Shown: positions 12,404 to 13,952 of the stretch, one piece after another
Position numbering within the stretch: position 1 is the stretch's first letter
How the letters are laid out: every line of letters begins with the position of its first letter
From: a virus
Taxonomy: Duplodnaviria > Caudoviricetes
Length of the DNA: 50,455 nt
Direction: 5' to 3' (one strand)
Virus record (IMG/VR): IMGVR_UViG_3300035183_001457
Coordinates: 1 to 50,455 of that record
Made by a program: the position numbers and the translations under genes
Notes under the pieces: generated by a model
Told to the model about the DNA's origin: nothing
The model's input: only the letters and a program-made list of their open reading frames with translations
The model's database searches: none

Positions 12404-13734
12404 GGAACGTCGACATCTACCTGCTGCCCGGTGGGCAGAGCGACTTCGTGTTCGACGTGACGTCGCCGTTCAAGGCGTTCGTCGGCGGCATGGGAAGCGG
12501 CAAGACCTACGGCGCCGTCGCGTCGTCGCTGCTGCTCGGCTCGCTCAACGCGCCGCTGCCCGGCGTGTTCGTCGAGCCGACGTTCAGCATCATCAAGGAC
12601 GCGGCGCTCCCGGCGTTCGAGGATCTGCTCGACGAGAACGCGATCCCGTACTCGTGGCACGCGTCCGACCACGTGCTCTCCGTGGGGCGCGGCCGCAGCG
12701 CGTTCCAGATCTTCATGCGCTCCGGCGACAGGCCTCACCGCCTGATCGGATTTAACGCTGCATGGGGCATGATCGACGAGCCCGGCCAGCAGAAGTCCGA
12801 GATCTTCAAGCGCGTCGTGCAGCGCTGCCGATCACCCGAGGCGAAGTTTCCACAGATCGGGTTGAGCGGGACGCCCGAGGGGCTCAACTGGTTCTACCGG
12901 GTCTGCGAGGCGCAGCCGCCGACGGGTATGCGGCTCTACCGCGGGCGCACCGCGGACAACCCGTTCTTGCCGCCCGGCTACCTCGAGAACCTATTCGCGA
13001 CGCTGTCGAATCAGGAGATCGCGGCGTACGCCGAAGGTCGCTTCGTCAACCTCACGAGCGGGTCCGTGTACCCGAGCTTCGATCGGCACAAGCACGGGCG
13101 CATGTGCATCGGGCCGCTCGACGGCGACATCCTCGTCGGCTGCGACTTCAACGTCGCCAAGATGGTCTGGCCGATCGCGCGCCGCGTCGGCAACGAGCTT
13201 CACGTGTTCGACGAGGTCACGGGCGTCAACACGAACACCTACCGGCAGGCCGAGGCCCTCGAGAACCGCCTGCGCGACTGGTTCGCGAAGGAGCGCCGTG
13301 AGGAGTTCGCGCGCGGAGGCTTCGACATGTTCAAGCAGACCGTGAAGATCTACACCGACGCCACCGGCGCCGCGCGAAAGACCTCGGCGAGCGAGTCCGA
13401 CGTCGCCATCCTTCAGAGCCGCGGGTTCTGGGTGATGCCATCGGAGAGCAACCCGCCGATCCGCGACCGAGTGCACACGCTCGAGCGCCGCTTCCGCGAG
13501 CGCGCACCTATCACCGGCGCGCCCATCACGTACGTCGACGTCGAGCGCTGCAGGGAGCTGACGCACGCGCTCGAGGGGCAGGCCTACGGTCCCGACGGCC
13601 TCCCCGAGAAGAAGCACGGCGCCGAGGACCTCTCGGGTCCGAACGACGCGCTCGGCTACATGGTCTGGGGCCAGTTCGAGTGGCGCGCCTCGCTGCCCAC
13701 CGGCAACAGGGTTGCGATCCAGCAGTACGAGTGA
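12400..13734 (+). CDS. terL: Terminase large subunit (444 aa)
   Basis: Walker A GGMGSGKT, Walker B MIDE, GTPEG, DNPFLP; nuclease motifs GCDFN, DATG, DALGY. Confidence 0.95.
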   Translation: MRNVDIYLLPGGQSDFVFDVTSPFKAFVGGMGSGKTYGAVASSLLLGSLNAPLPGVFVEPTFSIIKDAALPAFEDLLDENAIPYSWHASDHVLSVGRGRSAFQIFMRSGDRPHRLIGFNAAWGMIDEPGQQKSEIFKRVVQRCRSPEAKFPQIGLSGTPEGLNWFYRVCEAQPPTGMRLYRGRTADNPFLPPGYLENLFATLSNQEIAAYAEGRFVNLTSGSVYPSFDRHKHGRMCIGPLDGDILVGCDFNVAKMVWPIARRVGNELHVFDEVTGVNTNTYRQAEALENRLRDWFAKERREEFARGGFDMFKQTVKIYTDATGAARKTSASESDVAILQSRGFWVMPSESNPPIRDRVHTLERRFRERAPITGAPITYVDVERCRELTHALEGQAYGPDGLPEKKHGAEDLSGPNDALGYMVWGQFEWRASLPTGNRVAIQQYE

Positions 13735-13782
13735 GAGGATGACCGCGTGCCGCGCTGACCTTGAAAACCAGCGCTGCCCGTC

Positions 13783-13872
13783 GGCTCCCTCGATCGGCGA
13801 TTGGCGAACGCCCGCAGCCCCACGGCTGCGACCCTCTCGAGGGTTGAGTGGTTCAAATCCACCGGGGAGCCA
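13783..13872 (+). tRNA. tRNA-like cloverleaf with extended acceptor stem, long variable arm and non-canonical anticodon loop (identity undetermined)
   Basis: GGCTCCC/GGGAGCC acceptor; D arm GGCG-ATTGGCGAA-CGCC; CGCAGCC-CCAC-GGCTGCG; V arm ACCCT-CTCG-AGGGT; T arm GTGG-TTCAAAT-CCAC; discriminator A then CCT. Confidence 0.7.
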
Positions 13873-13952
13873 CCTCTGCCGCCCACGACTCTGAATCGTG
13901 GGTCGGCGGAGAAGGCGGTCGCCGCGGCTGCCGTCGCGAGCGCGTCTCACCC

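What the first reader, a model, noticed from the sequence alone, without database searches (positions are those of the whole stretch)
13733..13911. Free-standing anticodon-like stem-loops flank the anticodon-less tRNA: candidate tRNA-decoy cassette
Immediately 3' of the cloverleaf is a ~15-bp hairpin (13874-13911) capped by CCCACGA-CTCTGAA-TCGTGGG, a canonical 7-nt anticodon loop (CU-CUG-AA, Gln). Immediately 5' is GCGCTG-AC-CTTGAAA-AC-CAGCGC (13752-13774) containing CU-UGA-AA (Ser), preceded by GAGAGGATGACCGCGTG, which resembles a tRNA-Ser 5' end. Tentative model: a late-expressed RNA that presents anticodon loops as decoys for anticodon nucleases or tRNA-targeting toxins. Alternatives are a collapsed tRNA array, or GACCTTGAAAAC acting as an rRNA-type boxA antitermination signal.
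Basis: partly seen in the sequence, partly recalled or inferred. Interest (0 to 1): 0.75.

Follow-up and report, generated by a model that had tools for sequence, protein, structure and literature searches.

The report
tRNA-derived three-part RNA between phage genes
Between the terminase gene and the next large gene of an uncultured high-GC phage lies a compact folded RNA made of tRNA parts, including an exact copy of a glutamine tRNA's anticodon arm, but whether it is a decoy, an RNA-cutting signal or a fossil remains untested.

Summary
The 230-nt spacer between terL (stop 13734) and the next gene (start 13965) is non-coding. It folds into three domains joined by single nucleotides: hairpin 13745-13781, a class-II tRNA-shaped core 13783-13872, and hairpin 13874-13911 (z -5.67).

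The 3' hairpin has 15 pairs and a 7-nt loop. Its top 17 nt (13884-13900) are identical to the whole anticodon arm of a real phage tRNA-Gln(CUG).

The 5' hairpin carries the 7-mer of a real tRNA-Ser(UGA) loop, but inside an 11-nt loop, so it is not a canonical anticodon arm.

Loops holding C-U-NNN-A-A are rare here: 4 of 1362 plus-strand hairpins, and two of them are these.

The decoy interpretation could not be tested. The closer relatives sit on contigs I could not fetch, the two DNA runs show no variants, and no RNA run was listed. The boxA, terminator and attP alternatives found no support.

My best reading (about 0.35) is a tRNA-derived intercistronic module. Host RNase P and a 3' tRNA-end nuclease (RNase Z or E) would cut at the core and leave hairpin-capped mRNA ends. 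A functionless relic (0.25) and a decoy (0.12) remain open.

The parts
12400..13734 (+). terL (large terminase), 444 aa, stop TGA 13732-13734
   Evidence: Pfam Terminase_6N E 1.6e-6 and phrog_2 E 8e-24. The database-called protein P0008 matches 12400-13731 at 100% identity and 100% coverage.
13745..13781 (+). 5' hairpin: core stem 13752-57/13769-74 and an 11-nt loop 13758-13768 that contains the 7-mer CUUGAAA (13760-66). It ends 1 nt before the tRNA-like core.
   Evidence: Fold -15 kcal/mol, z -3.54, 1 of 200 shuffles as stable. The 7-mer equals the loop of 1 of 2 real tRNA-Ser(UGA) examined. The 17-mer has 0 of 2 IMG/VR hits in tRNAs.
13783..13872 (+). Class-II (tRNA-Sec / allo-tRNA-like) cloverleaf. 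It has a 7+2-bp acceptor stem with bulged U13790, a long D stem with a GG-containing loop, and an 18-nt anticodon arm that closes to 7 bp plus tetraloop CCAC. It also has a 5-bp variable arm, a 4-bp T stem with loop UUCAAAU, and discriminator A13872 followed by CC.
   Evidence: ARAGORN tRNA-??? (ca). cmscan tRNA-Sec 24.5 bits, E 0.015, gathering score 47. MFE is a cloverleaf, -47.1 kcal/mol, z -3.56. 0 of 3000 shuffled genomes match it.
13874..13911 (+). 3' hairpin: 15 bp with a bulged U13903 and a 7-nt loop CUCUGAA (13889-95). It starts 2 nt after the discriminator.
   Evidence: Fold -28 kcal/mol, z -5.49, 0 of 200 shuffles.
13884..13900 (+). 17 nt identical to a complete tRNA-Gln(CUG) anticodon arm (positions 27-43). 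The reverse complement equals a tRNA-Leu(CAG) arm.
   Evidence: 2 of 2 exact IMG/VR matches lie in register on tRNA anticodon arms. 3 of 3 tRNA-Gln(CUG) in L247/L248 share the loop. E. coli glnV/glnX differ at loop positions 32 and 38.
13965..15632 (+). Downstream gene, 555 aa. It is called portal by position and size only. It has no Shine-Dalgarno motif within 30 nt.
   Evidence: The N-terminus aligns with 4 homologues. No Pfam, PHROG or phage tblastn match. The start lacks an SD, whereas 19 of 27 late-gene starts have one.

Best explanation
The terL-to-next-gene spacer encodes a compact 167-nt RNA (13745-13911) assembled from tRNA parts. It has a class-II tRNA-shaped core that cannot decode, and hairpins abut it on both sides through single-nucleotide linkers.

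I think it most likely works in cis on the late polycistronic transcript as a processing and stability ('punctuation') element:
1. Host RNase P would cut at 13782/13783.
2. A 3' tRNA-end nuclease (RNase Z or RNase E) would cut at about 13872/13873.
3. The terL message would then end in a 3'-terminal hairpin.
4. The downstream structural-gene message would begin with a 5'-terminal hairpin carrying at most 1-2 unpaired nucleotides.
5. Both ends would be shielded from exonucleases and from 5'-end-dependent decay, so terminase and structural-protein mRNA levels could differ.

Shown: the non-coding status, the fold, the domain boundaries, the intact acceptor, T, D and variable arms with the A-C-C tail, the closed anticodon arm, and the anticodon-arm identity of the 3' hairpin.

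Inferred: the origin from phage tRNA genes, transcription as part of the late operon, both cleavages, and the stabilising effect.

On this reading the anticodon-type loops are a mark of origin rather than the working part.
For: - The spacer is non-coding. GC3 is 0.67-0.75 in its three frames, against 0.81 or more in the called genes, and every frame has a stop.
- The three-domain fold is the MFE both in isolation and in context: -88.8 kcal/mol, z -5.67, 0 of 200 shuffles.
- Linkers are 1 nt on each side.
- The parts that RNase P and RNase Z read (established knowledge) are flawless: a 7+2-bp acceptor stem, T loop UUCAAAU on a 4-bp stem, GG in the D loop, and A-C-C after the stem. The only decoding part is closed into 7 bp plus a tetraloop.
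- The same late operon carries other strong hairpins right behind genes: 15619-15664 across the downstream gene's stop, 18857-18902, and 19291-19336 with a T-rich tail.
- No integrase, promoter-like or terminator-like site explains the spacer.
- Analogous tRNA-like processing signals without a decoding role are known: plant mitochondrial t-elements (PMC1920247) and MALAT1 mascRNA (PMC8457004). For both I saw only the search listing and the start of the abstract.
Against: - No RNA data exist and no conservation data could be obtained (and the locus searches).
- A processing role does not need a letter-perfect tRNA-Gln(CUG) anticodon arm, nor a Ser(UGA)-type loop, so it leaves the rarest feature unexplained.
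- The core fails curated thresholds. There is no Rfam gathering hit, tRNA-Sec scores 24.5 bits against 47, and RF01852 and RF00005 gave no match at E<=10 in the whole-record search.
- ARAGORN's call vanishes at -ps105.
- The 3' hairpin is not among the 18 most stable 46-nt windows of the plus strand.
- A distant relative (L004, 25% identity for the downstream protein) has only a 50-nt spacer and no tRNA. None of 243 other loci has a tRNA right after terL. The element is therefore not a general feature of this terminase family.
- The host's RNases are unknown.
Confidence: 0.35

Rival explanations
1. Fossil of a small phage tRNA gene cluster. Class-II tRNA, tRNA-Gln(CUG) and perhaps tRNA-Ser(UGA) genes once sat here, were truncated and fused, and what remains has no specific function today.
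For: - The 3' hairpin top is identical to a real tRNA-Gln(CUG) anticodon arm.
- The 5' loop 7-mer equals a real tRNA-Ser(UGA) loop, and two loop-proximal pairs are broken as expected of decay.
- The core has a 6-nt or closed anticodon loop.
- The phage has no other tRNA.
- The element is absent from distant relatives.
Against: - Every stem of the core is perfect except one A-C at the top of the T stem, and the anticodon arm is a perfect 7-bp helix. Decay should hit stems at random.
- The 3' hairpin extends the 5-bp anticodon stem by 10 further pairs. Truncating a tRNA gene does not produce that.
- The positions do not fit a simple array. A full tRNA around either anticodon arm would overlap the core or terL (coordinates).
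- There are no internal direct repeats.
Confidence: 0.25
2. The late transcript displays anticodon arms (Gln CUG, Ser UGA) and a tRNA body as competitive substrates or sponges for host anticodon nucleases or other tRNA-targeting defence toxins.
For: - The anticodon-arm identity is exact for Gln(CUG), and such loops are rare in this genome: 4 of 1362 hairpins, two of them here.
- The stem extension would stabilise an isolated anticodon arm.
- The closed anticodon arm keeps the core out of translation (inference).
- Toxins that cut tRNA-Gln(CUG)/tRNA-Leu(CAG) and need only an intact anticodon stem-loop are known (VapC-mt11, PMC6459853, abstract read).
- An isolated stem-loop is recognised by a yeast tRNase (PMC2275089, title and start of abstract in the listing).
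- Phages do counter tRNases with their own tRNAs (PMC11555353 and 10.1101/2024.01.02.573894, listing and start of abstract).
Against: - There is no test of function, conservation or expression.
- The 5' hairpin is not a 7-nt loop on a paired stem.
- With 1-nt linkers the hairpins stay on the mRNA ends after tRNA-type processing instead of being free.
- A single-copy mRNA element would have to compete with abundant host tRNAs.
- The VapC-mt11 motif (GG before the cut, per the abstract) is absent from this loop.
- No tRNA-repair gene turned up among the 44 ORFs scanned against Pfam; I made no dedicated search for RNA-ligase or kinase families.
- My two literature searches listed no free anticodon-arm decoy.
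Confidence: 0.12
3. A stand-alone small-RNA gene. The tRNA-like core is made as its own RNA, the 3' hairpin is its terminator or 3' processing stem, and the RNA acts in trans. It might, for example, be charged by an anticodon-independent synthetase and used outside translation, or bind a tRNA-binding protein.
For: - A hairpin starts 2 nt after the discriminator, as behind many tRNA genes.
- The class-II body with an A discriminator and an intact elbow is the tRNA type whose synthetases ignore the anticodon (established knowledge, recalled).
- tRNA-Sec-like 8/4 and 9/3 tRNAs occur in phages, and some were proposed as regulatory RNAs (PMC5389517, passages read).
Against: - No promoter-like site lies upstream and no T-run follows the hairpin.
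- A terminator here would cut off the downstream late genes.
- Acceptor plus T stems total 13 bp with a bulge, not the 12 bp of allo-tRNAs.
- Nothing was tested on charging.
Confidence: 0.08
4. A cis-regulatory leader for the downstream gene: an attenuator, an antiterminator (including the boxA idea) or a translational control element.
For: - The downstream gene lacks a Shine-Dalgarno motif, unlike 19 of 27 late-gene starts.
- A GGAG lies in the descending arm of the 3' hairpin.
- The 12-mer around the 5' loop recurs 5 times with up to 2 mismatches, against 1.29 expected.
Against: - The two other 12-mer matches that I read (1804 and 40611) sit in coding-looking DNA.
- The 53-nt leader 13912-13970 is no more structured than shuffles (z -0.23).
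- The GGAG is about 54 nt from the ATG.
- There is no promoter nearby for a nut-type site.
Confidence: 0.06
5. A recombination site. The 15-bp inverted repeat around a 7-nt spacer, identical to a tRNA anticodon arm, is a core site for a tyrosine recombinase (an attP-like or dimer-resolution site).
For: The geometry of the 3' hairpin as DNA. tRNA anticodon arms are classic integrase crossover sites (established knowledge, recalled).
Against: There is no tyrosine or serine recombinase in a record that CheckV rates 100% complete. The site sits inside the late operon.
Confidence: 0.03

Closest known systems
Plant mitochondrial t-elements and mitochondrial 'tRNA punctuation' (PMC1920247; listing and start of abstract only)
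   Same: tRNA-shaped structures between coding regions of a polycistronic RNA could define mRNA 5' and 3' ends through RNase P and RNase Z without serving in translation.
   Different: That case is organellar rather than phage or bacterial. Those elements have no flanking anticodon-arm hairpins. Cleavage here is only inferred.
MALAT1 / mascRNA module (PMC8457004; listing and start of abstract only)
   Same: A tRNA-like element is used as an RNase P/Z processing signal, and the upstream RNA's new 3' end is protected by an adjacent structure.
   Different: That module is eukaryotic and nuclear, and its protection comes from a triple helix rather than a hairpin. No anticodon-arm copies lie next to it.
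tRNA-Sec and allo-tRNAs with 8/4 or 9/3 acceptor/T branches, found in bacteria and phages (PMC5389517; passages read)
   Same: Long acceptor stem, short 4-bp T stem, long D stem with a small loop, long variable arm, and a bulged nucleotide in the acceptor branch.
   Different: Those tRNAs have a 7-nt anticodon loop and decode; this core does not. The branch here is 13 bp with a bulge, not 12 bp. The tRNA-Sec model scores 24.5 bits against a threshold of 47.
Phage-encoded tRNAs that rescue infection from tRNA-cleaving defence systems such as retron effectors and PARIS (PMC11555353, 10.1101/2024.01.02.573894; listing and start of abstract)
   Same: These are also phage-borne tRNA-type sequences that could bear on tRNA-targeting immunity.
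   Different: Those are complete, functional replacement tRNAs. Here there is an isolated anticodon arm on a long stem and a body without an anticodon.
Genuine tRNA-Gln(CUG) anticodon arm (L247 1035-1107)
   Same: All 17 nt of positions 27-43 are identical.
   Different: No D arm, T arm or acceptor stem surrounds it. Instead, the flanks pair with each other for 10 more base pairs.

Membership tests
Canonical tRNA gene (Rfam RF00005) | Score at or above the curated gathering threshold | tested here: not met
   0 gathering-level matches in the window. No match at E<=10 in the whole-record search.
Canonical tRNA gene (Rfam RF00005) | 7-nt anticodon loop with U33 on a 5-bp stem | tested here: not met
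   The core arm folds to 7 bp plus a 4-nt loop. ARAGORN reads a 6-nt loop with the 2-nt 'anticodon' ca.
Canonical tRNA gene (Rfam RF00005) | Cloverleaf with acceptor stem, T loop of the conserved form and GG in the D loop | tested here: met
   The MFE is a cloverleaf. The T loop is UUCAAAU and the D loop holds GG. 0 of 3000 shuffled genomes reproduce it.
tRNA-Sec (Rfam RF01852) | Gathering score of 47 bits and anticodon UCA | tested here: not met
   24.5 bits, E 0.015 on a 501-nt excerpt. No match in the whole-record search. No UCA loop is present. Ordinary tRNAs in five bacterial genomes score 25-72 bits on this model.
allo-tRNA (8/4 or 9/3) | 12-bp acceptor plus T branch, tRNA-Sec-like D arm, long variable arm and a functional anticodon loop | tested here: not met
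   The D arm and variable arm fit. The branch is 9/4 with a bulge or 8/5 with a mismatch (13 bp). There is no 7-nt anticodon loop. The definition is from PMC5389517.
tRNA anticodon stem-loop (as a structural unit) | 5-bp stem closing a 7-nt loop with pyrimidine-32, U33 and purine-37 | tested here: met
   3' hairpin: met, and identical to a real tRNA-Gln(CUG) arm. 5' hairpin: not met, because the loop has 11 nt and the two would-be closing pairs are A-C and C-A.
Intrinsic (Rho-independent) terminator | GC-rich hairpin followed by a run of T | tested here: not met
   No terminator-like site was found in the spacer. All 8 sites found in 7000-20000 are on the minus strand. The tails after both hairpins lack T runs.
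boxA / nut-type antitermination site | Conserved boxA sequence downstream of a promoter, with a partner hairpin, that binds NusB/NusE | tested here: inconclusive
   No promoter-like site lies nearby. The two recurrences of the 12-mer that I read lie in coding-looking DNA. I did not compare it with a consensus, and binding is not testable here.
tRNA-targeting attP site | An integrase gene in the same element | tested here: not met
   PF00589 and PF00239 gave 0 matches in a record rated 100% complete, with positive controls in 14 and 12 of 14 control genomes.
tRNA-like processing signal (t-element / mascRNA type) | tRNA-shaped fold with an intact acceptor/T minihelix lying between functional RNA segments | tested here: met
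   It lies between terL and the next gene on the same strand.
tRNA-like processing signal (t-element / mascRNA type) | Cleavage by RNase P at the 5' end and RNase Z at the 3' end in vivo | not testable with these tools
   No RNA run was listed. Enzymology or end mapping is needed.

The most novel reading that the evidence does not exclude
The module is a tRNA-mimic counter-defence cassette. It would combine a non-decoding class-II tRNA body with a stabilised, letter-perfect tRNA-Gln(CUG) anticodon arm and a second Ser(UGA)-type loop. Expressed from the late operon, it would soak up or mislead host tRNA-targeting nucleases, either anticodon nucleases or toxins acting on the variable arm or acceptor. 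That would be the first RNA decoy of this kind in a phage.
Probability: 0.12. Interest if true: 0.85.

Novelty: new variant of a known kind. Interest (0 to 1): 0.5.

Why it matters
If the processing reading is right, this would extend 'tRNA punctuation' to a bacteriophage late operon. That principle is known from organelles and from a few eukaryotic long RNAs. It would give a simple way for a phage to set different mRNA levels for terminase and structural proteins.

If the decoy reading is right, it would be a new class of anti-defence element: RNA mimics of tRNA parts, as opposed to the replacement tRNAs already known. That would bear on how phages escape the growing list of tRNA-cleaving immune systems.

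In either case, an exact anticodon arm transplanted onto a 15-bp stem next to an anticodon-less tRNA body is an unusual object. It is cheap to test by end mapping, an RNase P assay and protection assays.

The phage lineage is also almost unsampled: the downstream protein has 4 relatives among 5.8 billion proteins.

Tried and rejected
**Relatives**
- DNA search of the phage collection found no match for terL plus the next gene. For the spacer it found only 26-36-nt matches at E 0.2-0.8 in 52 records.
- tblastn of the downstream protein against phages found no match.
- tblastn of TerL found 918 records, all under 60% identity, the best at 34%.
- The search for related loci with the downstream protein or its alignment gave:
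  - IMG/VR: 0, then 1 truncated locus.
  - GTDB genomes: 0.
  - JGI metagenomes: 3 loci at 25-38% identity. Only L004 has upstream DNA. It shows a 50-nt gap after an unverified 525-aa upstream ORF and has no tRNA.
- With TerL or its alignments, every fetched locus was 42% identical or less.
- The useful relatives exist but sit on Logan, ENA or JGI contigs that I could not fetch.
- Cluster members from JGI turned out to be unrelated short peptides.

**Sequencing runs**
- Two DNA runs of microbial-mat metagenomes hold the stretch. Both may be the source of this DNA. They show no other letters anywhere in 12400-15629, and the only insertion or deletion is at about 14790. So there is no micro-variation to use.
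- No RNA holder was listed.

**Ideas rejected**
- attP: no integrase.
- Small ORF in the spacer: GC3 0.67-0.75 with stops in all frames.
- Promoter or terminator: none found.
- Kissing-loop partner: the complement of the 3' loop occurs once elsewhere, inside terL, within chance expectation. The complement of the 5' 7-mer occurs 3 times against 1.17 expected, and 9 of 100 shuffles reach that count.
- Internal duplication: no direct repeats.
- Split ribosome-binding site through a leader hairpin: the leader is not structured beyond shuffles.

**Host tRNAs**
- The named DnaB relatives are all Myxococcota: 8 of 8 named among the 120 listed.
- I found no route to Myxococcota genomes. Genomes reached through loci carry no taxonomy, and their DnaB is only 33-38% identical for the full-length matches.
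- The comparison with host tRNA-Gln, tRNA-Ser and tRNA-Sec was therefore not made.

**Other**
- The ARAGORN hits in L228, L230, L231 and L238 are poor calls inside coding-looking GC-rich DNA.
- The E. coli genome search with the spacer found no match.
- Supplementary files of PMC5389517, with figures on allo-tRNA-like sequences and phage tRNA clusters, were not seen and may bear on the comparison with allo-tRNAs.
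Full report
**What the window is.** The window is a complete IMG/VR virus record of 50,455 bp, rated 100% complete by CheckV, with about 68% G+C. A 50,144-nt contig from one sequencing run maps as a circular permutation of it. Genes on the plus strand from about 7.4 to 38 kb are the late or structural block. TerL is secure: Terminase_6N and phrog_2, and the database-called protein equals 12400-13731. The next gene (13965-15632, 555 aa) is called portal only by position and size, since it has no Pfam, PHROG or phage-collection match. 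Its start at 13965 is supported by the aligned N-termini of four homologues. Bacterial-type SSB, an Amidase_2 lysin and DnaB point to a bacterial host. All 8 named proteins among the 120 listed DnaB relatives are from Myxococcota. No tyrosine or serine recombinase is present.

**The observation.** The 230 nt between terL's stop (13732-34) and ATG 13965 do not look coding. GC3 is 0.67-0.75 with stops in all three frames, against 0.81 or more in the called genes. The RNA folds far better than shuffles: the whole spacer gives z -4.08, and the 167-nt core 13745-13911 gives -88.8 kcal/mol, z -5.67, 0 of 200 shuffles. Three domains follow each other with single-nucleotide linkers:
- Hairpin 13745-13781, with a 6-bp core stem (13752-57/13769-74) and an 11-nt loop.
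- A cloverleaf at 13783-13872.
- Hairpin 13874-13911, with 15 pairs, one bulged U and the 7-nt loop CUCUGAA.

The 5' loop, however, has 11 nt rather than 7, because the AC/AC 'pairs' cannot form.

**The central cloverleaf.** ARAGORN calls it tRNA-??? with a 2-nt 'anticodon'. The call is marginal: it is lost at -ps105, and shuffled genomes give 4 hits per 100. cmscan with permissive filters aligns it end to end with tRNA-Sec at 24.5 bits (threshold 47; E 0.015 for a 501-nt search). Nothing reaches a gathering score, and the whole-record searches with RF01852 and RF00005 returned no match at E<=10. I cannot explain that discrepancy except by filters. Ordinary tRNAs in five bacterial genomes score 25-72 bits on the tRNA-Sec model, so 24.5 bits is at the edge of real-tRNA cross-matches.

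An independent null is clearer. I required a T arm of the conserved loop form, a 7-bp acceptor stem, a closed multiloop with four hairpins and equal stability per nucleotide. 0 of 3000 dinucleotide-shuffled genomes produced a candidate. 336 passed the first two criteria, 2 were closed with four hairpins, and none of those was as stable.

Anatomy:
- Acceptor stem of 7 pairs plus 2 more after a bulged U.
- A long D stem with a small GG-containing loop.
- A 5-bp variable arm.
- A 4-bp T stem with loop UUCAAAU.
- Discriminator A followed by CC.

These are traits of tRNA-Sec and allo-tRNAs (PMC5389517, passages read). The anticodon arm has a near-normal length of 18 nt, but its loop bases pair, giving 7 bp and a tetraloop. 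This is therefore a closed loop rather than a large deletion.

**The flanking loops against chance.** Among hairpins with exactly 7-nt loops and stems of at least 6 pairs, 1 of 415 (both strands) has the form CT...AA, where composition predicts 0.6. Three further results change the picture.
1. Allowing loops of 3-12 nt, only 4 of 1362 plus-strand hairpins hold CT...AA in the loop, and two of them are the two hairpins that abut the only tRNA-like element.
2. The 17 nt at the top of the 3' hairpin (13884-13900) have two exact matches in 2.9 million IMG/VR contigs, and both fall in register on anticodon arms of genuine tRNAs within tRNA clusters of large phages. One is tRNA-Gln(CUG) in the same sense (L247). 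The other is tRNA-Leu(CAG) on the opposite strand (L248), which is possible because the stem is self-complementary. As a control, the equivalent 17-mer of the 5' hairpin also has two matches, and both lie in non-tRNA, coding-looking DNA.
3. In those two loci, 3 of 3 tRNA-Gln(CUG) share the loop CUCUGAA (2 of 2 without the one found by the query). 1 of 2 tRNA-Ser(UGA) has CUUGAAA. 11 of 27 real tRNAs have C-U-NNN-A-A loops. E. coli glnV/glnX differ at loop positions 32 and 38, so the loop is typical but not universal.

I conclude that the 3' hairpin really is a tRNA-Gln(CUG)-type anticodon arm set on a 10-bp stem extension. The 5' hairpin may be a degraded Ser(UGA)-type arm, since two substitutions would restore a 5-bp stem, but that is not shown. 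The test is post hoc.

**Comparative evidence could not be obtained.** The lineage is almost unsampled. The downstream protein has 4 relatives among 5.8 billion clusters. TerL has 13 relatives at 47-68% identity. All of these lie on Logan, ENA or JGI contigs that none of the open tools could deliver. Every locus that I could fetch is at most 42% identical in TerL or 25-38% in the downstream protein. In the one locus with both genes (L004) the gap is 50 nt and holds no tRNA. ARAGORN over all 243 other loci (about 1.6 Mb in total) found no tRNA between terL and the next gene. The few calls elsewhere are poor hits in coding DNA or a bacterial tmRNA. Two microbial-mat DNA runs hold the phage without a single substitution in 3.2 kb, and no RNA run was listed.

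**What it most likely does.** The parts of a tRNA that RNase P and RNase Z recognise are intact and without a single stem mismatch: the acceptor/T minihelix, the D/T elbow and the A-C-C tail. The only part needed for decoding is sealed. This pattern is expected of a tRNA-like processing signal and not of random decay.

The 1-nt linkers set the geometry. Cleavage at the tRNA 5' end would leave the terL message ending in a hairpin plus one nucleotide. Cleavage after the discriminator would leave the downstream message starting with one nucleotide plus a 15-bp hairpin. Established work on bacterial mRNA decay associates these arrangements with protection from 3' exonucleases and from 5'-end-dependent RNase E attack (recalled, not looked up here).

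The operon uses strong hairpins right behind other late genes as well. Known analogues are plant mitochondrial t-elements and the MALAT1/mascRNA module (listings and abstract starts only). I put this reading at about 0.35. Its weakness is that it gives no reason for an exact anticodon arm.

**Rivals.**
- A functionless fossil of a tRNA cluster (0.25) explains the tRNA letters. It does not explain the perfect stems, the 10-bp extension of the anticodon stem or the tight packing.
Nucleases that need only an intact anticodon stem-loop exist, including one specific for tRNA-Gln(CUG) and tRNA-Leu(CAG) in vivo (PMC6459853, abstract). However, the 5' loop is not canonical, the hairpins would stay tethered to mRNAs, stoichiometry against host tRNAs is unfavourable, and nothing was tested. 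My two literature searches listed no free anticodon-arm decoy.
- A stand-alone tRNA-like gene with its own terminator (0.08), a leader or antitermination element (0.06) and a recombinase core site (0.03) have little or no support.

**Verdict.** The decoy interpretation cannot be judged with the data that can be reached. The object is best described as a tRNA-derived, three-domain intercistronic RNA. That makes it a new variant of the known class of tRNA-like processing elements if my reading holds, and something categorically newer if the decoy reading does.

Noticed in passing
window 1-50455: A 50,144-nt contig of one run maps as a circular permutation of the window, and a 32-kb contig of the other run starts about 86 nt before 12400. 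The genome therefore looks complete and circular or circularly permuted, although IMG/VR labels it linear.
   Followed up: partly
window 41934-43454 (-): All 8 named proteins among the 120 listed relatives of the phage DnaB helicase (38-51% identity; the 8 named ones 39-46%) are from Myxococcota. Together with 68% G+C and a microbial-mat source, this suggests a Myxococcota host.
   Followed up: partly
window 13935-13967: The downstream ('portal') gene has no Shine-Dalgarno motif within 30 nt, whereas 19 of 27 late-gene starts do. A 3-codon mini-ORF (ATG 13957 to TGA 13966-68) overlaps its ATG.
   Followed up: partly
window 15619-15664, 18857-18902, 19291-19336, 20183-20228: The most stable plus-strand hairpins of the genome sit at or just after the ends of late genes. 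One spans the downstream gene's stop, and the hairpin at 19291-19336 is followed by a T-rich tail like a classical terminator.
   Followed up: no
window 13965-15632: The protein in the portal position belongs to a very rare family. It has 4 relatives among 5.8 billion protein clusters and no Pfam, PHROG or cultured-phage match.
   Followed up: partly
window 997-2367 (-) and 49376-50440 (-): The phage encodes a MoxR-type AAA+ ATPase (bpMoxR, E 3.5e-51). Across the record's ends it also encodes a protein with a weak VWA_2 match (25.1 bits, below the 27-bit cut-off). These would be adjacent on the circular map.
   Followed up: no
window 4879-6438 (-): A ParB-like domain is fused to an N6/N4 DNA methyltransferase (phrog_498 E 1.2e-103; PF01555).
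   Followed up: no
window 11690-12403 (+): The ORF just upstream of terL, which overlaps its start, matches phrog_645 annotated 'Rnase E' (E 2.4e-14). By position it could be the small terminase, and the match may rest on low-complexity Arg/Glu-rich sequence.
   Followed up: no
window 13757-13768 and 1804, 16446, 24253, 40611: The 12-mer around the 5' hairpin loop recurs 5 times with up to 2 mismatches, against 1.29 expected (0 of 100 shuffles reach 5). The two other copies that I read (1804 and 40611) lie in coding-looking DNA.
   Followed up: partly
window 13812-13824 vs 13897-13909: The 5' strand and loop of the core's anticodon arm are 85% complementary (13 nt) to the descending strand of the 3' hairpin. 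This is a possible alternative pairing, but it may be chance in GC-rich RNA.
   Followed up: no
L228, L230, L231 (3109-3196) and L238 (2042-2136): ARAGORN reports an 88-nt 'tRNA-Arg(ccg)' and a 95-nt 'tRNA-???(ggag)' upstream of terL in distant GC-rich relatives. The drawings show mismatched stems, and the surrounding DNA looks coding, so these are probably false positives.
   Followed up: partly
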